Positions 709-9,682 are shown, numbered from the stretch's first letter. The stretch is 12,510 nucleotides of DNA from a candidate division FCPU426 bacterium (GCA_030637655.1 DAOWGI010000077.1:1-12510); one strand, 5' to 3'. The notes: generated from the letters alone by a model not told the origin. Program-made: numbers and translations.

Positions 709-2682
709 TTATTTTGTTTTGGGAATGGTTAAGCGTATTTCAACCCGCCGATTGTGGGAACGGCCGATTTCTGTGGCCAAGGTGTTTTCCGGTCTGCTCA
801 TACCGTATCCGGTTAATGAGATATTCTCCTGACTTACATACGGCTGTTGGGCCAGGAAGTTTGCCACCATATGTGCCCGCTCTTTGGAGATAACCAAATT
901 GGCGGCAATGGATCCGATATCATCAGCATGCCCTTCACATACAGCGCTACTTACGTTCGGATGGCGGCGTATGATTTCTGCGGCAGCCAAACATTTATCC
1001 GTCATACCGGGGTCCAGGACCGCGCTGTTAAAATCAAACAATATCCCATAAATCAATATCCCGATTTTACCGGGCAAAGCAGTAACCTGTTTGGCTGGAA
1101 TAGCCCGGATGTCTTTGGAGACCAAAGCCTCGGTCTGATCCAAAAATGCCACAGCCAGATCAAATTCATATGTCAAGCTGGTATCCGCGACCTCTCCATC
1201 CGTCTGTTTTCCATCCCATAATACTTCGGCCGGCAAGGAATCCTGGCCGGAAATAACCCGCACTACACTCCGGTCATACTTTTGCCGAATAGTAAGGCGC
1301 CAATTGCTCACTTCCGGACAACCGGCAAAAACAAAACGGACTCCTGGTTCGATGGTCGTTTTATCAGCAAACTGAAGCTTTACAGCCGGCTGCAATTGCG
1401 GCAGCTTATGCGCTGAGACGGTTTTTTCGTCCGCTTTAAATATATACTGGTACTTCTTATTCTGGGTTACCAGAGTTCCGGCCGCATCCCGGCCATCCCA
1501 GTCTAATTCTTTGGGCGGCATGCCCACCCCGGAAAAAGTCTTAATGATTTTACCGCCATAATCCTTGATCTCGAAGGTCCAGGCTTTGATCCCAGGCGCC
1601 AGGTCCGGTGTTTTAAAAAGCAGCTTCCCTTCAAATTTACGCGGTGAAGTAGTCAGGGATTTTACTTGCGGCTGCACCTGCCTGGCCACCTTCAACTCCA
1701 CGATCGGCTCTACTGCCGTTGGTTTGGATTCCGGATTGACAATTTCCCTAGGTGTAAATTCCGGCTCTAATTCATTGCGTATATAATAGGTTAAGGTAAA
1801 GCGCTGATTGTCTCCCAAACCATTATAGGGCTGGTAGGCATAATCCAGTCCAAGATCACCATAACGAAGACCTGCCCCCACAGAGAGTGTTCCCATATCA
1901 TCAAAGAGCCGGTATCCGGTCCGGATAAACAACAGCTCTTGTATGCTGTATTCCAACCCCAGCAAAACAATGCTCTTTTCATCACCTTCCAGCGGTTGCT
2001 GCAAATCCGCCCGCAGACTGAGCTCATGACCGGGAATCGGATCCAGATCTACAGCCACACCGGCTAAAAGCAGAGCAGGCAAAGGATCCGCTTCTGTCTC
2101 AAAAGCGCTCATGATTCCCAGGTTTTGTACTGACACGCCCAGTGTTAACGGGATAGCATCAATTAGGTACTGTGCGCCCAAATCCAGAGCAACACCCTGA
2201 CTGCTGTAGCCTGCCAACACACTCTCGAAAGCCTTGAGTCCCAACCCCACCTGAATGCCAAATCCCAATTTCCGTCCATGCGCCATATGAAAGAGTAAAT
2301 CATGATTTTCCAGAGCGCCGGTCTCATCTCCATACTCATCGACCTCAATAAAATCATAGGTGCTGGCATAGAAAAAGCGTAAGGCCCAATCACCGCCCAG
2401 CCAATCCGGATACACACCTTCGAGTTGCTCGTAGGCAGTATCTATAAAAGACGCTACATGGGTAAAGGAGAGTGATATCGTTTGCTGTCCCAATACCCCG
2501 GCTGGATTCCAGACCAGAGCATTACTACCTGATTCTACGGCTGTACCCGCACCGACTGCCGAGGCGGCGGCAGGAACATTAACGCGCAAAAACTCCGCAC
2601 CGGTCGTTCCCGCACCTTGCAACGAAACGGCTCGTAACACAATTCCCATGATAAAAATGAACCATACAATTTTTTTTAGCAT
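709..2682 (-). CDS. PorV/PorQ (UPF0164/FadL-like) outer-membrane barrel fused to two FlgD-Ig-like domains and a C-terminal OmpA peptidoglycan-binding domain, 657 aa
   Basis: Signal peptide; GTTGAEFLRV...A.G....A..WNPAG barrel N-terminal motif; alternating beta-strand pattern ending GLDYAY...QRFTLTY (~aa 298); two W-x(n)-WDG FlgD-like repeats; OmpA motifs ILFDFNSAVL, EGHADDIG, ISKERA, GYGMSRP, NRRVEI. Confidence 0.85.
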   Translation of the reverse strand: MLKKIVWFIFIMGIVLRAVSLQGAGTTGAEFLRVNVPAAASAVGAGTAVESGSNALVWNPAGVLGQQTISLSFTHVASFIDTAYEQLEGVYPDWLGGDWALRFFYASTYDFIEVDEYGDETGALENHDLLFHMAHGRKLGFGIQVGLGLKAFESVLAGYSSQGVALDLGAQYLIDAIPLTLGVSVQNLGIMSAFETEADPLPALLLAGVAVDLDPIPGHELSLRADLQQPLEGDEKSIVLLGLEYSIQELLFIRTGYRLFDDMGTLSVGAGLRYGDLGLDYAYQPYNGLGDNQRFTLTYYIRNELEPEFTPREIVNPESKPTAVEPIVELKVARQVQPQVKSLTTSPRKFEGKLLFKTPDLAPGIKAWTFEIKDYGGKIIKTFSGVGMPPKELDWDGRDAAGTLVTQNKKYQYIFKADEKTVSAHKLPQLQPAVKLQFADKTTIEPGVRFVFAGCPEVSNWRLTIRQKYDRSVVRVISGQDSLPAEVLWDGKQTDGEVADTSLTYEFDLAVAFLDQTEALVSKDIRAIPAKQVTALPGKIGILIYGILFDFNSAVLDPGMTDKCLAAAEIIRRHPNVSSAVCEGHADDIGSIAANLVISKERAHMVANFLAQQPYVSQENISLTGYGMSRPENTLATEIGRSHNRRVEIRLTIPKTK

Positions 2683-2705: not shown

Positions 2706-2739
2706 TTAGATTAGATTAGATTAGATTAGATTAGATTAG
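2706..2739. repeat. Pentanucleotide microsatellite (TTAGA)6.8
   Basis: Six perfect TTAGA units (2706-2735) plus TTAG. The final TTA (2736-2738) is the TAA stop of the upstream gene. Confidence 0.97.
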
Positions 2740-4502
2740 CGTATAACGACCATCTTTCTCTTTTCTGTAAAGCTCTCGGTCTCGATATACACAATATAAA
2801 TACCCGAACGAACCACACTGCCGTTTTTATTCACACCGTTCCAGATCGCCTCAAAATTTCCAGCTTGAACCACCTCATCTACTAAGGTTTTGATCAACTT
2901 ACCGCGCAGCGAATAAATTTTCACTTTCACACGTTCTGATTTTTCCAGGTACACGGCGATCTGCATCGGCCGCTGGGTGCTGGGTTTCAGCACATTACCG
3001 CGAATGACTACTGGTGTGTCTTTATCCGGCTTTCTTTTTAGTTCTGTTGGCGTCACAGTATGAGTAAGCACATCCGGAGTCGGATGCTCATCCGGCACAT
3101 ACGTCATGGTAGGTGTGAATGTTTCCTGCTGTACAGTAATCGTGACTGTCTCTGTGGGTGTAAATGTATTGCTAGTTATAATTGGTGTTCCAGTCAATGT
3201 TTGAGTCTCGGTCGAAGTTTCTGTCGGGGTCTCGGTCAGGATCTTGGTCGGGGTTGCGGTCGGAGTTGCGGTCGGAGTGATAGTAAAAGTGTCAGTCGGA
3301 ACGAACAGAGTCGGCGTGGCTGTTGTGGTAAGCAAGGTATCATCCCAGTGTTTTACATACACTCTGCTTTTAAGCGTTGCATCCCATTCTTCCCATGTGA
3401 CATATGGTGTTCCATTAACCACTGTAATACTTGGATCTTTCGCACCAAAATTGACATCCATATTCAAACTACCGCCTATTTGTTCCCAATTAGAGCCATT
3501 GTATTTTTTAACATAGACCTGGGTAGTATTCCCGTCCGATTCGCACCAGGCCACAAATGGAGTTCCAACGTACAACGCAATGCCGGCCGAATGCGCATTC
3601 CGGCCCGTACTGGCATTCAAACTTCCGGTCCCCACCGGCTGCCATTCCGTCATATTAAAATATTTAACAAAGACTTCAGTATTCAAACCCGTATGCTCTT
3701 CCCAGGCCACATACAGTCCGACTGATTCGGCAGCTATATCCGGATTTTGCGCAGACTTATTGCCATCCATATTCAGACTACCGTTCCCTACCACTTCCCA
3801 GGTAGTTGCGTTCCAGGTTTTTACATACACCTGCGTTGCACCACTCGTTGCTTCATACCAGGTAACAAGAGGGTTTAAATCACCGGCTATTCGCGGCCGA
3901 AAGGCGTTGTAATTACCATCATAATTTAATTCCGTACCCATTGAATCCCATGCCGATCCATTGTATTGCGCAACTTTTATTTTGTGCATTCCTTCATCTT
4001 CATCCTGCCAGCACACTATAGGGGTTGAACCATACAAAGTAATATCCGGTGAGTGAGCATTGCTGTCAGTGATCATATTGATTTTTTCGCCCAGCGGGAT
4101 CCAGGTTGTACCTGAATAACAACTCACAAAGAATTTATATTTCAAACTTGTATTTTGTTCCAACCAAGCAGCATAGGGTGTATTGGCACTATCAACAATC
4201 AAGCGTGGCGCGCACGCGGTATGGGTTTTCACCCGATTGAGACTTTCTCCCGGCTCTGTCCAGTCTGTTGTTTCCCATATGCTCACGTAAATCTGATCTA
4301 CTTCACCTGCCGATTCACTCCAGATGACATGAGGTAAAAGAGTGCCGTAATGATCTGATTCTATGTGCGGAGAAGATGCAGACTCGTCTCCATTGACACT
4401 CAGGGAAGTACTGCCATCCGGTACCCATTCCGCCCTTCCGGGCACTATCAGGAGTAAAAGCATGCACAAGCTCATGAAAATTCGGCAAATAATTTTTTTC
4501 AT
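2736..4502 (-). CDS. Secreted protein: signal peptide, 7-repeat beta-propeller, Thr/Pro-rich linker, C-terminal FlgD-Ig/T9SS type A-like sorting domain (588 aa)
   Basis: Start moved from GTG 4544 to ATG 4502 (AGGTGG SD upstream; MKKIICRIF...PGRA|E signal peptide). Seven ~50-aa repeats W..G.SLN...A..P.I...P.V.W.E...V.V..[WY]NG (4427-3339). TPTATPT linker. CTD ..IYSLRGKLIKTL..WNG..SGIYIVYI..KMVVIR. Confidence 0.88.
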   Translation of the reverse strand: MKKIICRIFMSLCMLLLLIVPGRAEWVPDGSTSLSVNGDESASSPHIESDHYGTLLPHVIWSESAGEVDQIYVSIWETTDWTEPGESLNRVKTHTACAPRLIVDSANTPYAAWLEQNTSLKYKFFVSCYSGTTWIPLGEKINMITDSNAHSPDITLYGSTPIVCWQDEDEGMHKIKVAQYNGSAWDSMGTELNYDGNYNAFRPRIAGDLNPLVTWYEATSGATQVYVKTWNATTWEVVGNGSLNMDGNKSAQNPDIAAESVGLYVAWEEHTGLNTEVFVKYFNMTEWQPVGTGSLNASTGRNAHSAGIALYVGTPFVAWCESDGNTTQVYVKKYNGSNWEQIGGSLNMDVNFGAKDPSITVVNGTPYVTWEEWDATLKSRVYVKHWDDTLLTTTATPTLFVPTDTFTITPTATPTATPTKILTETPTETSTETQTLTGTPIITSNTFTPTETVTITVQQETFTPTMTYVPDEHPTPDVLTHTVTPTELKRKPDKDTPVVIRGNVLKPSTQRPMQIAVYLEKSERVKVKIYSLRGKLIKTLVDEVVQAGNFEAIWNGVNKNGSVVRSGIYIVYIETESFTEKRKMVVIR

Positions 4503-4623
4503 TTTCGCCCACCTGCTTTCCGAAGAATCATTGACATCCCTCACTGCCCCGGATCAAAGACTCATACATATATTAAATATCCAGCATGCAACCACTCTGT
4601 TTACTAATTATATTTACGGCATT

Positions 4624-5661
4624 TTATTTGATTACCGCAATTTTAAATCTTTTTTTCTCTATATCTCCGCTGATCACTAACATATATATGCCACTGGCCG
4701 TTTTCCCGCCGGATTCCGTACTGCCGTCCCATTCCAGGACATGGGTGCCTGCCGGTAATTCCTGGTCTATAATTTTCTTCACCAGGCGCCCCTTGCGCGA
4801 GAAAACCCTCGCTTGTACCTGAGCGGGTTCAGCCAATAAAATTTCCAGACGTGTTTTCTCATTCCGATTGATGTGAATTTTATTCTTCAGCAGACGTACC
4901 TGCCGCATGGTTGGCATTTGATCTTTTTTCTCCTCTTGCGCTGAACTGTTGGCAGCCATTTTTTTACTCTCACTCTCAGTTGATCTGTCCTGGGGACTTT
5001 TCCGGAACAGACGCGGCGGTTTATAGCTATAGCGAGGACGAACCTGCTCTCCGGATTTCTTTTTCCGTTGGGGTTCTTCTTTTACCTCCTGCGGTAAGGA
5101 CGCTTTCTCAACACGCTCCTCTTCCGGCTTTATCTCCTGATGTGGTTCCAACTCAACGCTTTGCCGAGGAACAGCATTGACTACTTTTTCTTCTGAGGCT
5201 TTCTCCTGCGCGCGTTGAGACCTTTCAAGTATTGGTTCAATTGGCGTGACTTCTAAAGCCACAGGTTCCGGTGTGAGCACTTCCGGTTGTTCTGCCACCA
5301 TAGGCGGCCGGGGTGCCTGGGGAGTGGTTTTTTCCTGAAACCATTGATTGGAAACAACCACTAAAGCGAAAGCCGCGGCAACCACTCCCAACGCGCCCAG
5401 AGTGGCCGGTGCCCACCGAAAAGAAATCCGCGAGGGCGCGGAAACATTTCCGAGTTTTTGCCACACAGCGTCATTAAAACGCTCCGGCGCTTTCACAGGC
5501 GTTTCCGCGTGCAGCGTTTCATGCACCAACTTTTGCCAGGCATAGGATTCCATGCACTTCGTGCAGGTATGCAGATGCTCTCGAAGTTTTGCCTCAGCTT
5601 CAGACGACAGCTTCCGGTCTATCGCTGCCAGGATTTGCTCTTGCCAATACTTGCATCCCAT
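4624..5661 (-). CDS. Zinc-binding (zf-HC2/ZAS) transmembrane anti-sigma factor with a C-terminal FlgD-Ig/T9SS-CTD-like domain, 345 aa
   Basis: MGC..W...I...D..L...HLHTCTKC (HxxxCxxC). One TM helix (ATLGALGVVAAAFALVVVS), a Pro/Glu/Lys-rich spacer, and a 92-aa C-terminal domain ending WDG...SGIYMLVI...KIAVIK. Starts 2 nt after the sigma stop, with SD GGAGGG inside the sigma 3' end. Confidence 0.88.
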   Translation of the reverse strand: MGCKYWQEQILAAIDRKLSSEAEAKLREHLHTCTKCMESYAWQKLVHETLHAETPVKAPERFNDAVWQKLGNVSAPSRISFRWAPATLGALGVVAAAFALVVVSNQWFQEKTTPQAPRPPMVAEQPEVLTPEPVALEVTPIEPILERSQRAQEKASEEKVVNAVPRQSVELEPHQEIKPEEERVEKASLPQEVKEEPQRKKKSGEQVRPRYSYKPPRLFRKSPQDRSTESESKKMAANSSAQEEKKDQMPTMRQVRLLKNKIHINRNEKTRLEILLAEPAQVQARVFSRKGRLVKKIIDQELPAGTHVLEWDGSTESGGKTASGIYMLVISGDIEKKRFKIAVIK

Positions 5662-5663
5662 AA

Positions 5664-6284
5664 TTAAAAATTACCCTCCACCCGGTTTCCCTGCCAGGTT
5701 TGAATAATATGCCGCAGATCTTCCCGCGCGCGAAACAGCCGGGATTTTACCGTGCCTTCCGGCAATCCTAAAATTTGAGCGACTTCAGACACATCCATTC
5801 CTTCCAGTTCTTTTAAAACAATGACCTGGCGGAAACGATGATCCAGCTGATTAATCGCGCGTAAAATCATCTCTCGCAACTCTCCTGACTGAGCCGGTAT
5901 CTCCGGACTGTCAAACGACTGCGGTTGTAAATATTCCCGTTCTTTTAAAGCTTCATCATATAATACCCGGCGACGGGCATTTTTCTTAGCTTGCGTGTAA
6001 ACAATATTCACCGCAATTCTGTAAAGCCAGGTAAAGAATCCGGATTCCTGCCGGAATTTTCCCAGACTCCGGTACGCCCGTACAAATACCTCTTGGGCAA
6101 TATCCTCCGCTTCTTCGGAATTCAAAAGCATATGATAGGCTAAGGAAAAGACTCGATCCCGATAGCGGGTAACCAGCATGTCAAATGCCTCGTTATCTCC
6201 CTTTAGAGTCCGCTCAATCAGATTTTTATCCTTCGCTTGCCTATTATTTAGACTGGAATTGTTGTTTTGTGGTTCCCGGTTCAT
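5664..6284 (-). CDS. ECF RNA polymerase sigma-70 factor (RpoE/SigW-like), 206 aa
   Basis: Region 2 motifs GDNEAFDMLV.RY, EAEDIAQEVF, FFTWLYRIAVN and region 4 motif EVAQILGLPEGTVKSRLFRAR. ATGA overlap with the upstream gene at 6281-6284. Confidence 0.95.
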   Translation of the reverse strand: MNREPQNNNSSLNNRQAKDKNLIERTLKGDNEAFDMLVTRYRDRVFSLAYHMLLNSEEAEDIAQEVFVRAYRSLGKFRQESGFFTWLYRIAVNIVYTQAKKNARRRVLYDEALKEREYLQPQSFDSPEIPAQSGELREMILRAINQLDHRFRQVIVLKELEGMDVSEVAQILGLPEGTVKSRLFRAREDLRHIIQTWQGNRVEGNF

Positions 6285-9200
6285 GGCAGGATTTTTTTTA
6301 AATTTTCAAGGCGTTTTCCGGCAATCGAGTTATCCGGTTCCAGGGCCAGAACCTCTTGATATTGGTGTTTGGCTTCCTCCCATTTCCCCTGGCTCTCCAG
6401 CACATGGCCTAAATTGTGATGGATGATAACCCAATTCAAGGACAAAAGCTCCAGTTCATATTTGCCCTGCGCGTTAGGAGAGAGAATTTTCACTTCCAAA
6501 GCCCTTAAAAAATTAGCTCGAGCGCTCTCAAAATCACCCCTCATTTCCTGAGCCACTCCCAAATTGCTCAAAGCAGCTGCATAATTCGGCTCTAATTTAA
6601 GTGCCTGCATCCAGGCTCGTTCCGCAGCACTCATCCGGTTGGCATTACGCAGAAGATTTCCCAATTCAAAATAAAGCAGCGCTTTTTTGGGCGATTTTTC
6701 AATCCCCAACCGATATTGCCTTTCTGCCAGGTCATATTGGTGTTGCTGGTCCTGTTCTGGAATCCGGGCTGCTTTAAGACCGTACAGAGTTCCCATATGC
6801 CTATGTATAAAAGCATCCAGAGAATTAAGTACCAGGGCCTTTTTAAAGGCCCACTCGGAAAGTTGGAACCAGTTCTCAGCGTCCACCACGGCATATAAAT
6901 CCACCCATATCTGTCCCAATTGATCATACGCGTGTGAGGAAAAAGGATGAACTGAAAGAGCACGCTGAAATTCACGATCCGCTGCTTTGAGATCTTGCTT
7001 GTACCTGTGCGCAGTACCCAGATTTTCCAGATACCGACTGATCAAGGGTCGAATGCTCGCTGTGGCCGTGGCTACCAGTACAAATAAAAGCAGCACTAAA
7101 ACCGGTTGCCTGCTTACTGCCTGTAAACGCCCCAACCAGGCACCGATATCCAACCAGGACTTATCCTCTTGACGCGTACGAACCGCCGGCATAACTGCAA
7201 TACCAAGCAGAATCATGTACCAGACAAACAAGGCGGGTGGATGCCAATTAAAATCGACCAAGCCTTGGGCCAGACCACCAACAATAGCGCACCAGGCAAC
7301 CATCCTGGCTTTGCCATCCTCGATTTCCGCTTCCGTGTTTTCCGGACTAGTGGTTCGAATTTGTCTCCGCATGTAAATAAAGAGTAACCAGAGCAACCAG
7401 AGTACAATCAATCCTCCGGGTAAACCAATGACCGCCATGAGGTGCAAAAATTCATTATGGGCAAATTGTGCCTGTTTACCATAGCGTGAAAGACCCCTGA
7501 CATTCGGAAAATTATAGCGTTCAAAAGCGTGTTTGAAATTTCCCGGCCCAAACCCGGTGATGGGACGGTTGCCAATCATTTGAACTGCTGAGTTGGCCAG
7601 CTGGAAACGCTCGTAGAGTTGACCGTGATAATTCCGGATGTCGGATAAGCGCCCACCGGTTTGAAAAGGCAATAAAAAAATCAGCACGACCATCAGGGCC
7701 AGAGCCAATAGCGCGAACTTAAAATAATTCGGTTGACGTCTCCGAATCCAGAACAACAGTACTACACTGCCGGCAAAAATATTAAGCACACCTCCGATGG
7801 AACCGGTGGCCAAGAGCGCGAAAAAGAGCAACAAGGTTACAAACGCGTACAGGAGTCGTCGTTTGGAATTAGTCGCGGCAAAAATGAAATTTACTAAACT
7901 GCCTAAAAAACCCATGGCCAGCATGGCAGCCAGGAGATTGGCATTAGGCCAATTGGCCGTCACTCGAATCGCTGAATTGGCGGCAGATTGAAATAAAGCA
8001 ATGATCGCAAGCCCGGTAGCGCTGAAAATCATGATGCGTGTGAGTATGACACCGGAACGTGAAACCCAAACAGTCAGACAATATATAAGCAGCCCCACCA
8101 ATCCCAAAGTCAGACCTGAAATAGCGCCGGCAGGATGTCCTGACACCAAAGCAGCCAGTACACCCCATACCAACAATACGCCTAGCGGCCACCGTAAAGG
8201 TATACGTTTGATCCATTGCGACCAGGAAGTCAGTGTCTCTATTTTTCCCGCAAAGAATACCAGGAGTAATAAACCGGTGGCCCAATACAAAAGACCTTCC
8301 ACTGGCAAACTTTTACCCCCTTTCCAGAGTACCAGGATACCCAGCAACCCCAGACCCCAGCGCACTAGTTGTCCAAAAGGAGCAGCGGGCATGGCGGGCA
8401 AAACCAGTCGCCGAGTGGCAAATCCCAGAGTAGTACCCAGAAAAAACCAAAACAATAGACTGGTTTTCATAAAATTCAAATCCAGATCAACACACGCATG
8501 CAACAACCCGGTCAGCACTCCTGAAACCAGGCCCAGTGCCACCACCTGCTGCGAACGTGCCAGGCAAGTATTGAAATTTTCGATGAGCTGTTTACCGGCC
8601 AAATATAAGAACCACAAGAAGACACCAAGCCCCAACAAACCGGTTTCGGCAAATTTGTGAACCATAAAATTATGCGCAAAGCGGACATAGTAACCATGTT
8701 CTAATTGGTAATCCGGAAAAACGATACCAAACAGTCCGGGCCCAACACCGGTCAGTAAATGCTCCCAGCCCATGTGCAAGGCACCGGCCCAATTTGCCGT
8801 TCGGGCGGAAAAATCAGCATAGAGATTTTGTGGGCCGCGCAGCCAGCAGAGAACCCCCGCGCCCAAGCCGGCTAAAACACCCCCTGCCAACCAGACTTTC
8901 CAGGTAATCCTATTTCCCGGCTGAAAACGCTTTTGCAGCAGATAAAAATACACGGCCATACCCGCGGTAGCAGCCAGCCACCCACCCAGAGATCCACTGA
9001 CATATAAACCTAAGACCAGAATCACAATACCAAGACAAAAAATCCACGCCTTCCACTGCCGGTTGACTGTCAGCAATAATGAAAAACCAATGGGTAACAA
9101 CATACCAATAAAGCCGGCAAATAAATTGGGGTAGGTGAATAAGGAAAAAGCACGCCTGGACAGTAATCGATTGGCTATTTCTTGTTCTATGGCACCCTGG

Positions 9201-9682
9201 GGTGCTTTCTGAGCAAACACCTGTTGATAGGTATCCAACAAACCAAGCAAGTGTTGATACAGACCGTATGCGGCGAGCAGCACGCCCAACGAAAAAAAAG
9301 CGACCAGTACACTTCGCACACTACGTCGATGGCGGGACAGCATAAAGGTAAGCACAAAGAGCAGCAGATAAGCAAGTTGGTGAGAAACAGGATTAAGGCT
9401 GTGAGCCGGATCCCGTGAGAAAGCGATCACTATTGCTTCCACCAGCACCAGCAGCAACAAAGCCGGACCAAACGTCATTTGGGAAAATTTATCTTGATCA
9501 AAAGCCAGAGCGATCCAGGCCAAGAGGCCGATCAACAAGGTACCCAGTACAAAAAAAGACAATCCTTGTCCTGATACGGACGGCGGCAGCAGAAACAGTA
9601 CCCCCACAAACAGGGCAACGCCCCAATACAAATTTCGACTCATCCACCGGGGATACCAGTGGCTAAGCAGAAGATTTCTCAT
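6281..9682 (-). CDS. Polytopic membrane protein with two tandem O-antigen ligase/O-oligosaccharyltransferase-like (Wzy_C) modules and C-terminal TPR repeats, 1133 aa
   Basis: Module 1: RAFSLFTYPNLFAG, GVGPGLF, FAHNF (H337). Module 2: RVTANWPNANLLA, GFGPGNF, FAHNEFL (H742). Many TM segments. TPR motifs after ~aa 880 (AYDQLG, LYFELG, ALKLEPNYAAALSNLG, HHNLG...LALEPDN). Confidence 0.85.
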   Translation of the reverse strand: MRNLLLSHWYPRWMSRNLYWGVALFVGVLFLLPPSVSGQGLSFFVLGTLLIGLLAWIALAFDQDKFSQMTFGPALLLLVLVEAIVIAFSRDPAHSLNPVSHQLAYLLLFVLTFMLSRHRRSVRSVLVAFFSLGVLLAAYGLYQHLLGLLDTYQQVFAQKAPQGAIEQEIANRLLSRRAFSLFTYPNLFAGFIGMLLPIGFSLLLTVNRQWKAWIFCLGIVILVLGLYVSGSLGGWLAATAGMAVYFYLLQKRFQPGNRITWKVWLAGGVLAGLGAGVLCWLRGPQNLYADFSARTANWAGALHMGWEHLLTGVGPGLFGIVFPDYQLEHGYYVRFAHNFMVHKFAETGLLGLGVFLWFLYLAGKQLIENFNTCLARSQQVVALGLVSGVLTGLLHACVDLDLNFMKTSLLFWFFLGTTLGFATRRLVLPAMPAAPFGQLVRWGLGLLGILVLWKGGKSLPVEGLLYWATGLLLLVFFAGKIETLTSWSQWIKRIPLRWPLGVLLVWGVLAALVSGHPAGAISGLTLGLVGLLIYCLTVWVSRSGVILTRIMIFSATGLAIIALFQSAANSAIRVTANWPNANLLAAMLAMGFLGSLVNFIFAATNSKRRLLYAFVTLLLFFALLATGSIGGVLNIFAGSVVLLFWIRRRQPNYFKFALLALALMVVLIFLLPFQTGGRLSDIRNYHGQLYERFQLANSAVQMIGNRPITGFGPGNFKHAFERYNFPNVRGLSRYGKQAQFAHNEFLHLMAVIGLPGGLIVLWLLWLLFIYMRRQIRTTSPENTEAEIEDGKARMVAWCAIVGGLAQGLVDFNWHPPALFVWYMILLGIAVMPAVRTRQEDKSWLDIGAWLGRLQAVSRQPVLVLLLFVLVATATASIRPLISRYLENLGTAHRYKQDLKAADREFQRALSVHPFSSHAYDQLGQIWVDLYAVVDAENWFQLSEWAFKKALVLNSLDAFIHRHMGTLYGLKAARIPEQDQQHQYDLAERQYRLGIEKSPKKALLYFELGNLLRNANRMSAAERAWMQALKLEPNYAAALSNLGVAQEMRGDFESARANFLRALEVKILSPNAQGKYELELLSLNWVIIHHNLGHVLESQGKWEEAKHQYQEVLALEPDNSIAGKRLENLKKILP

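What the first reader, a model, noticed from the sequence alone, without database searches (positions are those of the whole stretch)
4624..6284. ECF sigma / anti-sigma pair whose sensor domain is a copy of the secretion signal (CTD): a possible secretion-monitoring regulator
Seen: the ZAS anti-sigma has a TM helix, a ~150-aa low-complexity spacer and a terminal 92-aa domain (4902-4627). That domain aligns without gaps to the CTD of the next gene (3014-2739), with 22/92 identities by hand count, including S..G.L.K...D, AG, W.G, SGIY and the terminal K-x-x-V-I-K/R. Established: T9SS type A CTDs are Ig-like C-terminal export signals handled by the translocon and PorV, and ZAS-TM anti-sigmas (RsiW type) release their sigma after extracytoplasmic sensing or proteolysis. 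Inference: an inner-membrane-tethered CTD on a long spacer could engage the outer-membrane export machinery or a CTD peptidase as a pseudo-substrate. This would couple sigma release to secretion capacity, conceptually like FlgM export or SecM/VemP monitoring. I do not know of a described anti-sigma with this architecture.
Basis: partly seen in the sequence, partly recalled or inferred. Interest (0 to 1): 0.85.

Follow-up and report, generated by a model that had tools for sequence, protein, structure and literature searches.

The report
Anti-sigma factor with secretion-tag sensor
A membrane-anchored inhibitor of a transcription factor ends, on a long flexible tether, in the same export tag that marks the surface proteins encoded beside it; it travels with one particular outer-membrane carrier protein across many uncultured bacteria, so it probably lets the cell switch on surface-protein genes according to the state of its type IX-like export route.

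Summary
The anti-sigma gene (4624-5661) encodes a zinc-binding domain, an uncleaved membrane helix, a 146-residue disordered spacer and a T9SS-CTD-like Ig domain. It is not a one-off or a recent copy of the next gene: 59 complete examples occur in 42 of 99 genomes of the phylum (submitter label Ca. Firestonebacteria), almost always behind an ECF sigma. All 48 PorV-like barrels found in these loci fall in one clade. A structure model docks the tag on the window's PorV-like barrel (0.90 versus best control 0.15), but like complexes are solved, so this may be memory. A conserved ECF promoter (6276-6248) points at anti-sigma, cargo and barrel. Relatives encode SprA; this assembly lacks it together with lptFG (probably a gap). 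No GldM/GldN motor was found (no positive control), and PorU-like proteins are rare, so the peptidase idea is unsupported. Best reading: a carrier-specific export sensor; the sign of the signal and the protease step are inferred. The scan noted the same architecture before on other DNA, and type-B versions in Bacteroidota. I found no paper describing it; the nearest are PorA-PorY, Dma1 and FlgM.

The parts
5664..6284 (-). ECF sigma factor, 206 aa, sigma-E/sigma-W-like; its start codon overlaps the stop of the upstream O-antigen-ligase/TPR gene
   Evidence: TIGR02937 121 bits over cut-off 42.9; RpoE 154.7 below 236
6248..6276 (-). ECF-type promoter GGAACC-N17-GTCTAA (-35 at 6276-6271, -10 at 6253-6248) inside the first 13 codons of the sigma ORF, pointing at anti-sigma, cargo and barrel
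   Evidence: GGAAC in 12 of 12 and GTC in 11 of 12 aligned own-order loci; 7 genome hits at spacer 17 versus 0.8 expected; coordinates; function inferred
4624..5661 (-). anti-sigma factor, 345 aa: ZAS - TM - spacer - CTD
5554..5646 (-). zf-HC2/ZAS domain (H29-x3-C33-x2-C36)
   Evidence: motif in 57 of 59 complete orthologues
5341..5412 (-). Ala-rich signal-anchor helix, residues 84-107; no AxA cleavage site at its end
   Evidence: AxA in 0 of 59
4903..5340 (-). disordered spacer, 146 aa, not Thr-rich (3.5% Thr versus 39% in the cargo linker)
   Evidence: 104-174 aa, median 131, in 59 orthologues
4627..4902 (-). terminal T9SS-CTD-like Ig domain; N260, G324, Y326, K340 and K345 lie on the modelled PorV-binding face
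2736..4544 (-). co-encoded cargo: signal peptide, repeat domain without a Pfam hit, Thr/Pro linker, CTD (2739-3014) of the same subclass as the anti-sigma tag
   Evidence: ranked 1 of 68 genome CTDs by an HMM of anti-sigma CTDs
709..2682 (-). PorV-like barrel (residues about 24-300) fused to FlgD-Ig-like domain(s) and an OmpA_C domain: the candidate cognate carrier, wall-anchored
   Evidence: NF033709 125 bits over cut-off 90; PorV 6h3i_F E 6e-20
6281..9682 (-). upstream double O-antigen-ligase/TPR gene, translationally coupled to sigma in the own family and order (context, not core)

Best explanation
A carrier-specific export sensor. SHOWN: the architecture, its conservation, its link to one PorV-like clade, and a conserved ECF promoter motif in front of anti-sigma, cargo and barrel. 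MODELLED: the tag binds the extracellular loops of that barrel as T9SS cargo does. INFERRED: the ZAS domain holds the sigma at the inner membrane. The ~130-146-residue spacer lets the tag cross the periplasm and enter the SprA pore, where it is caught by a free cognate PorV-like carrier. Capture, or the pull when the carrier leaves SprA, exposes the tethered protein to a periplasmic cut and then RseP, freeing sigma. Sigma then makes more anti-sigma (negative feedback), cargo and carrier. Cargo bearing the same tag subclass competes for the carrier and damps the signal, so the module reports 'translocon working, my carrier empty'.
For: 59 of 60 anti-sigmas found end in the CTD (1 cut by a contig end); 59 of 60 follow an ECF sigma; 48 of 60 have a PorV-like gene in the fetched stretch, in three gene orders. 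These 48 barrels plus 1 of 46 other barrels of this genome form one clade, support 92, FastTree. HMMs built only from distant type II+III loci rank the window's cargo CTD 1 of 68 and its barrel 1 of 47. Complex score 0.90, best of 3 controls 0.15; runs agree in at least 90% of contacts; partner pLDDT at least 88; the mark was reached by 116 of 157 solved and 2 of 215 mismatched pairs. K340 touches barrel residues 108/111, as RemZ K1110 touches PorV N87/F115 (PMC10994853). Modelled interface positions are more conserved (2.35 versus 1.90 bits, 35 versus 59 positions). K340 is K/R in 29 of 29 type I+II and 0 of 19 type III, whose barrel contact columns change in step. Type III cargo has a different CTD class (ranks 84-116 of 121) and its own sigma70-like promoter (16 of 18 versus 1.5 shuffled; 0 of 29 elsewhere), so anti-sigma plus barrel is the constant pair. 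SprA-like genes pass TIGR04189 in 5 of 5 scanned and match in 40 of 40 relatives. RseP-like M50-PDZ is present. No signal-peptidase site.
Against: The complex may come from memory of solved PorV-CTD structures, and close cousins pass too, so it shows neither binding nor specificity. The K340 co-change is one clade, i.e. one event. TIGR04183 is below cut-off. The top fold match is PorU's CTD (Z 10.7, rmsd 2.5, 92 aligned) but tied with unrelated Ig domains. FlgD-Ig domains also sit internally in the periplasmic part of the barrel fusion, so the fold is not only an export tag here. No GldM (0 of 41) or GldN (0 of 21) found, without a positive control: the pulling force is unidentified. SprA is not in this assembly. 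IM-tethered PorA variants were not exported in P. gingivalis (PMC12152298 section 2.8). A tethered chain in SprA could jam it. Genome-wide CTD-carrier co-variation is weak (Mantel rho 0.16, p 0.03; HMM-score correlation not significant). Other sigma-E-like factors of the genome could read the promoter motif. No site-1 protease was identified.
Confidence: 0.45

Rival explanations
1. Dma-like stable tether with the opposite sign: the tag docks on its outer-membrane carrier and the intact, docked anti-sigma keeps sigma off; loss of the carrier, outer-membrane damage or vesiculation undocks it and triggers proteolysis.
For: Same overall plan as Dma1: IM helix, long disordered linker, OM-associated end (PMC10927553 passages). 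Spacer length is conserved without sequence conservation. A dedicated barrel in type III loci.
Against: The modelled site is on the extracellular loops (side inferred from the periplasmic OmpA fusion), reachable only through SprA, so a lasting tether would occupy the translocon. The protein has no barrel of its own.
Confidence: 0.2
2. PorA-like periplasmic signalling: the tag never enters SprA but binds periplasmic partners (chaperones, backed-up cargo, translocon-associated proteins), and that binding controls anti-sigma stability.
For: PorA's CTD activates PorY in the periplasm, needs its last strand and basic residues, and works when IM-tethered (PMC12152298 discussion and section 2.8). This needs no motor.
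Against: It does not explain a 104-174-residue spacer, the one-clade link to PorV barrels or the co-change of contact residues.
Confidence: 0.15
3. Disposal tag: an ordinary stress-activated site-1 protease cuts the spacer; the CTD only lets the released fragment be exported, and has no sensing role.
For: Disordered spacers and Ala-rich helices are typical of RsiW/RseA-type substrates (recalled). The PorV-binding face would still be conserved.
Against: Most other ZAS-TM anti-sigmas of the phylum manage without the tag (25 of 40 sigma-first loci). The operon and the promoter motif centre on cargo and carriers.
Confidence: 0.12
4. Generic periplasmic Ig module, picked up by shuffling from an abundant domain family, sensing something unrelated to export.
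For: 69 terminal CTD-like domains in this genome. Internal FlgD-Ig domains exist. The sigma partners are polyphyletic (13 changes, at least 6 forced). TIGR04183 is not met.
Against: The domain is always terminal with the terminal motif kept. Anti-sigma CTDs form their own lineages (10 changes versus 50 shuffled). One PorV clade is linked; complex 0.90 versus 0.15.
Confidence: 0.08

Closest known systems
Class I ZAS-TM anti-sigma factors (RsiW/sigma-W, RseA-type; recalled)
   Same: ECF sigma followed by a zf-HC2 + single-TM anti-sigma; sigma-E-like promoter; RseP present
   Different: the extracytoplasmic part is a long disordered spacer ending in a T9SS-type export tag, co-encoded with CTD cargo and a PorV-like barrel
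[quoted passage not shown]
   Same: IM-anchored anti-sigma, long disordered periplasm-spanning linker, distal end linked to the outer membrane
   Different: Dma1 ends in its own 8-stranded OM barrel and pairs with ECF21; here the end is a soluble Ig tag that needs a separate barrel and probably SprA; the paper's text has no 'type IX' hit
PorA-PorY-PorX-SigP of P. gingivalis (PMC12152298 abstract, section 2.8 and discussion; PMC7712824 abstract)
   Same: a T9SS CTD doubles as a signal controlling ECF-dependent expression of export genes
   Different: PorA is a separate secreted ligand for a histidine kinase; here the tag is fused to the anti-sigma, with no two-component step
Type B CTD cargo with cognate PorP/SprF shuttles and PorE anchors (PMC12618676 abstract and discussion; PMC9143113 abstract)
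   Same: cargo co-encoded with its own barrel; wall anchoring by an OmpA_C domain; no need for PorU
   Different: type-A-like/FlgD-Ig tags, PorV-family barrels with the OmpA domain fused, and a regulator that carries the tag
FlgM export checkpoint; SecM/VemP (recalled)
   Same: a regulator acts as a substrate of the export machine and so reports its state
   Different: FlgM is soluble and wholly exported; SecM/VemP act by translation arrest; this protein is membrane-anchored and appears tied to one carrier

Membership tests
Class I ZAS-TM anti-sigma (RsiW type) | HxxxCxxC zinc domain at the N-terminus | tested here: met
   zf-HC2 22.4 over 22.2; motif in 57 of 59
Class I ZAS-TM anti-sigma (RsiW type) | single uncleaved TM helix; gene directly behind an ECF sigma | tested here: met
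   59 of 60 loci
Class I ZAS-TM anti-sigma (RsiW type) | binds and inhibits the sigma; removed by two-step proteolysis | not testable with these tools
   RseP-like gene present; site-1 protease not identified
T9SS type A CTD (TIGR04183) | score over the curated cut-off | tested here: not met
   16.9 and 21.1 bits versus 23; 3 of 75 members hit Por_Secre_tail, 72 of 75 hit FlgD_ig at E<=0.001
T9SS type A CTD (TIGR04183) | terminal 7-strand Ig sandwich with Gly-x-Tyr and terminal Lys motif | tested here: met
   PorU CTD 6za2 Z 10.7, rmsd 2.5, 92 aligned, tied with other Ig folds
T9SS type A CTD (TIGR04183) | binds PorV loops through the conserved Lys | tested here: inconclusive
   model 0.90 versus control 0.15, K340 contact; like complexes are solved
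T9SS cargo | cleavable Sec signal peptide | tested here: not met
   cytoplasmic ZAS domain, internal anchor, AxA in 0 of 59
T9SS (host system) | SprA translocon | tested here: met
   relatives: 5 of 5 over the TIGR04189 cut-off; match in 40 of 40, three only as pieces; not in this assembly, which also lacks lptF/G
T9SS (host system) | GldLM motor and GldKN ring | tested here: inconclusive
   GldM 0 of 41, GldN 0 of 21, no positive control rang; GldK and GldL not searched
T9SS (host system) | PorU-type C25 sortase | tested here: not met
   none in this genome; over the cut-off in 5 of 41
Dma family | C-terminal 8-stranded OM beta-barrel | tested here: not met
   the C-terminus is a soluble Ig sandwich
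Dma family | long disordered linker behind an IM helix | tested here: met
Dma family | ECF21 sigma, Bacteroidota host | tested here: inconclusive
   ECF group not assigned here; host label Ca. Firestonebacteria is not Bacteroidota

The most novel reading that the evidence does not exclude
A dedicated anti-sigma/carrier pair uses the type IX export tag as a tethered probe: it is threaded into SprA, caught by its own PorV-like barrel and destroyed by that capture, so one protein directly converts export activity into transcription. It works in a stripped-down T9SS (SprA plus dozens of cognate PorV-like carriers, no recognisable Gld motor or PorU) outside Bacteroidota and, if earlier scan notes hold, has a parallel type-B version in Bacteroidota.
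Probability: 0.35. Interest if true: 0.87.

Novelty: new variant of a known kind. Interest (0 to 1): 0.7.

Why it matters
How cells match surface-protein synthesis to type IX export is only partly known (PorA-PorXY-SigP). A single polypeptide that joins an anti-sigma to an export tag would be a direct, FlgM-like coupling, and is testable with simple truncations in a T9SS host. It also points to a carrier-specific code for type-A-like tags, and to a T9SS-like system without the known motor in an uncultured phylum whose cargo includes GH8/CBM11 glycan-degrading proteins.

Tried and rejected
Recent copy of the neighbour's CTD: rejected (4th non-self hit; own lineages on the tree, a quick unfinished IQ-TREE search on 93 columns). 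CTD-peptidase pseudo-substrate: unsupported. Signal-peptidase site-1 cleavage of the RsiV/RsiP type: no AxA. Folded autoproteolytic domain in the spacer: none predicted. An apparent ECF promoter before type III barrels (8 of 19) is the conserved coding end of the upstream gene: rejected. The first PWM scan used wrong spacings and was replaced. A second promoter after the anti-sigma stop is seen in 5 of 13 own-order loci but not in the window. Own-locus cargo is not more alike than cargo of other anti-sigma loci (mean 115 versus 107). Word-indexed homologue searches found few relatives (2 and 5 proteins). The ESM Atlas gave only hits under 0.9 (CHU_C clusters of Bacteroidota 0.84-0.85): leads only. 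Cluster look-up gave no taxa. No PDB sequence hit for the SprA-like protein. Distribution outside the phylum was not established. Supplements of the ECF re-classification preprint could not be seen (closed) and might list this architecture.

Full report
OBSERVATION. The sigma (5664-6284) and anti-sigma (4624-5661) ORFs are as described. The anti-sigma has zf-HC2 at residues 6-36 and FlgD_ig at 264-331, both over Pfam cut-offs. AlphaFold2 (22-row alignment) predicts a helix at 84-107, low confidence from 121 to 247, and a confident 7-strand domain at 252-344. Identity to the next gene's CTD is 22/92 without gaps; shuffles give 6.4 on average and 17 at most. TIGR04183 stays below cut-off for the anti-sigma (16.9 and 21.1 versus 23) but is passed by the cargo CTD. 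The best fold match is PorU's CTD (6za2, Z 10.7, rmsd 2.5, 92 aligned), tied with unrelated Ig domains.

CONSERVATION. An HMM search of 99 genomes of the phylum (only 22 candidates scored per genome) and the region fetches gave 60 anti-sigmas in 62 stretches examined. 59 end in the CTD; one is cut by a contig end. The 59 lie in 42 genomes. 59 of 60 follow an ECF sigma; the exception (L017) is a decayed locus. Two further stretches hold a partial or ZAS-less copy. Among the best 150 hits in the 50%-identity library, 86 stored proteins of 270-400 aa were examined: 80 have HxxxCxxC and 82 a TM stretch. One submitter label names Ca. Firestonebacteria. Because that survey selected on the CTD, I also went sigma-first: the 40 best sigma hits not yet held gave 4 anti-sigmas with the CTD, 1 with a frameshifted CTD, 5 cut by contig ends, 25 with other ends and 5 without a detected anti-sigma. 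Inside the three starred sigma clades that hold the main locus types (56 rows) none has a different terminal domain. The CTD-linked sigmas are not one clade (13 changes, at least 6 forced). Spacers run 104-174 aa, median 131; no AxA site follows the helix in 59.

HOST SYSTEM. This genome has 69 ORFs with a terminal CTD-like domain and 49 with a PorV-like domain; 33 of the 69 lie within 400 bp of a barrel gene. SprA was not found here. Relatives carry 1850-2200-aa proteins that pass TIGR04189 (5 of 5 scanned, 228-276 bits versus 200), and one of them matches in 40 of 40 relatives, three only as pieces. In relatives sprA sits beside lptF/lptG, and these are also missing from this 91.6%-complete assembly, so a gap is the likely cause. 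C25/PorU-like proteins pass the cut-off in 5 of 41 genomes. GldM (0 of 41) and GldN (0 of 21) were not found, but no control rang. An RseP-like M50-PDZ protease is present.

LINK TO ONE CARRIER. 48 of 60 loci show a PorV-like gene: sigma-AS-cargo-barrel (13), sigma-AS-barrel-cargo (16), barrel-sigma-AS-cargo (19); several of the other 12 end at contig ends. All 48 barrels, with 1 of 46 other barrels of this genome (a paralogue of the window's), form one clade (support 92, FastTree). Anti-sigma CTDs cluster in their own lineages (10 changes versus 50 shuffled; quick tree, 93 columns), so the tag is not a recent copy. HMMs from distant type II+III loci alone rank the window's cargo CTD 1 of 68 and its barrel 1 of 47. 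In type III loci the downstream cargo has another CTD class (5 tested, ranks 84-116 of 121), includes a GH8/CBM11 protein, mostly has no barrel gene behind it, and is preceded by a sigma70-like promoter (16 of 18 versus 1.5 shuffled; 0 of 29 in types I and II). There, K340 is replaced in 19 of 19 (kept as K/R in 29 of 29 elsewhere) and barrel contact columns change too; this is one event. Against this: genome-wide CTD-barrel co-variation is weak (31 pairs, rho 0.16, p 0.03; HMM-score correlations not significant).

MODEL. Tag (252-345) with the window's barrel (24-300): score 0.90, best of 3 controls 0.15; at least 90% of contacts shared between runs; partner pLDDT at least 88; the mark was reached by 116 of 157 solved and 2 of 215 mismatched pairs, counts that hold only roughly with my own alignments. 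Contacts are on barrel loops, with K340 against residues 108/111. In the solved translocon the CTD binds PorV's extracellular loops inside SprA, RemZ K1110 bonds to PorV N87/F115, loading needs no energy and extraction does (PMC10994853, passages). The barrel is homologous to that PorV, so the pass may be from memory. Interface positions are more conserved than the rest (2.35 versus 1.90 bits, p 0.007, positions not independent).

PROMOTER. GGAACC-N17-GTCTAA lies at 6276-6248, inside the sigma's first codons; GGAAC is kept in 12 of 12 and GTC in 11 of 12 aligned own-order loci (the 13th lacks the sigma). In type II loci the motif precedes the sigma in 12 of 15 (0.04 shuffled). The genome has 7 strict hits at spacer 17 versus 0.8 expected, and 0-2 at other spacers. 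The 6 others precede a CTD cargo plus PorV-OmpA pair, a HAMP protein plus PorP/SprF-like barrel plus Thr-rich protein, a Thr-rich secreted protein, a MetA-pathway-family protein, a TPR protein, and one site with no clear ORF. Which sigma reads them is inferred. No conserved start codon follows the internal promoter, so in this order it probably raises anti-sigma, cargo and barrel rather than sigma.

MECHANISM. Most likely (0.45): the tethered tag is captured in SprA by a free cognate carrier; capture or pull leads to cleavage and sigma release; cargo competes. A spacer of about 130 residues can span a periplasm (recalled dimensions). Rivals: Dma-like docked-is-off tether (0.2); PorA-like periplasmic ligand (0.15); disposal tag (0.12); generic Ig module (0.08). 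Binding, sign, protease and energy source are all unshown.

LITERATURE. Seen: PMC12152298 (abstract, section 2.8, discussion), PMC7712824 (abstract), PMC10927553 (passages), PMC12618676 (abstract, discussion), PMC9143113 (abstract), PMC10994853 (passages), PMC7031533 (term search, nothing on secretion in the main text), bioRxiv 2019.12.11.873521 (main-text search: no FlgD, Por_Secre, CHU_C or T9SS; supplements closed). Searches listed no paper on an anti-sigma carrying a CTD, nor on a T9SS in this phylum; I read listings, and the library lacks most subscription papers. RsiW, FlgM and SecM/VemP are recalled. Earlier notes of this scan report the same architecture on another genome and type-B forms in Bacteroidota; I did not test those.

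VERDICT. Real, conserved, a new variant of membrane-anchored anti-sigma factors with good comparative evidence for a link to a PorV-like carrier; mechanism inferred. Interest 0.7.

Noticed in passing
G000 genome and relatives: A T9SS-like system outside Bacteroidota: SprA, 49 PorV-like ORFs and 69 CTD proteins, many as cargo-barrel pairs, often with OmpA fused to the barrel; no GldM/GldN found (no positive control) and PorU-like proteins rare.
   Followed up: partly
G000 assembly: sprA, lptF, lptG and neighbours are all missing, although present together in relatives: probably an assembly gap.
   Followed up: partly
window 6281-9682: A 1133-aa double O-antigen-ligase + TPR gene is translationally coupled to the sigma throughout the own family and order, behind M23 and aroQ genes; it might glycosylate the Thr-rich cargo linkers (speculation).
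   Followed up: no
window 2709-2738: (GATTA)6 microsatellite at the stop codon of the cargo gene, between cargo and barrel.
   Followed up: no
L033, L101, L130-L138: Type III loci: LacI-like gene (label recalled from sequence), barrel, sigma, anti-sigma, then arrays of large glycan-active cargo (GH8, CBM11) with a distinct CTD class and sigma70-like promoters.
   Followed up: partly
L154, L160, L163, L165-L168, L172, L176, L181, L185, L188: Another family of ZAS anti-sigmas in the phylum ends in a different conserved domain with a terminal LPVEF-like motif; not identified.
   Followed up: no
G000:C17:14334-14804 (L197): A small secreted CTD-only protein (157 aa), the best pairwise match to the anti-sigma tag; CTD hits in similar 130-170-aa frames occur in several relatives. 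A possible PorA-like soluble counterpart.
   Followed up: no
L017 (G010) and L155 (G080): L017 has lost the sigma and most of the upstream gene but keeps the -35 box; L155's anti-sigma CTD is frameshifted near its end.
   Followed up: partly
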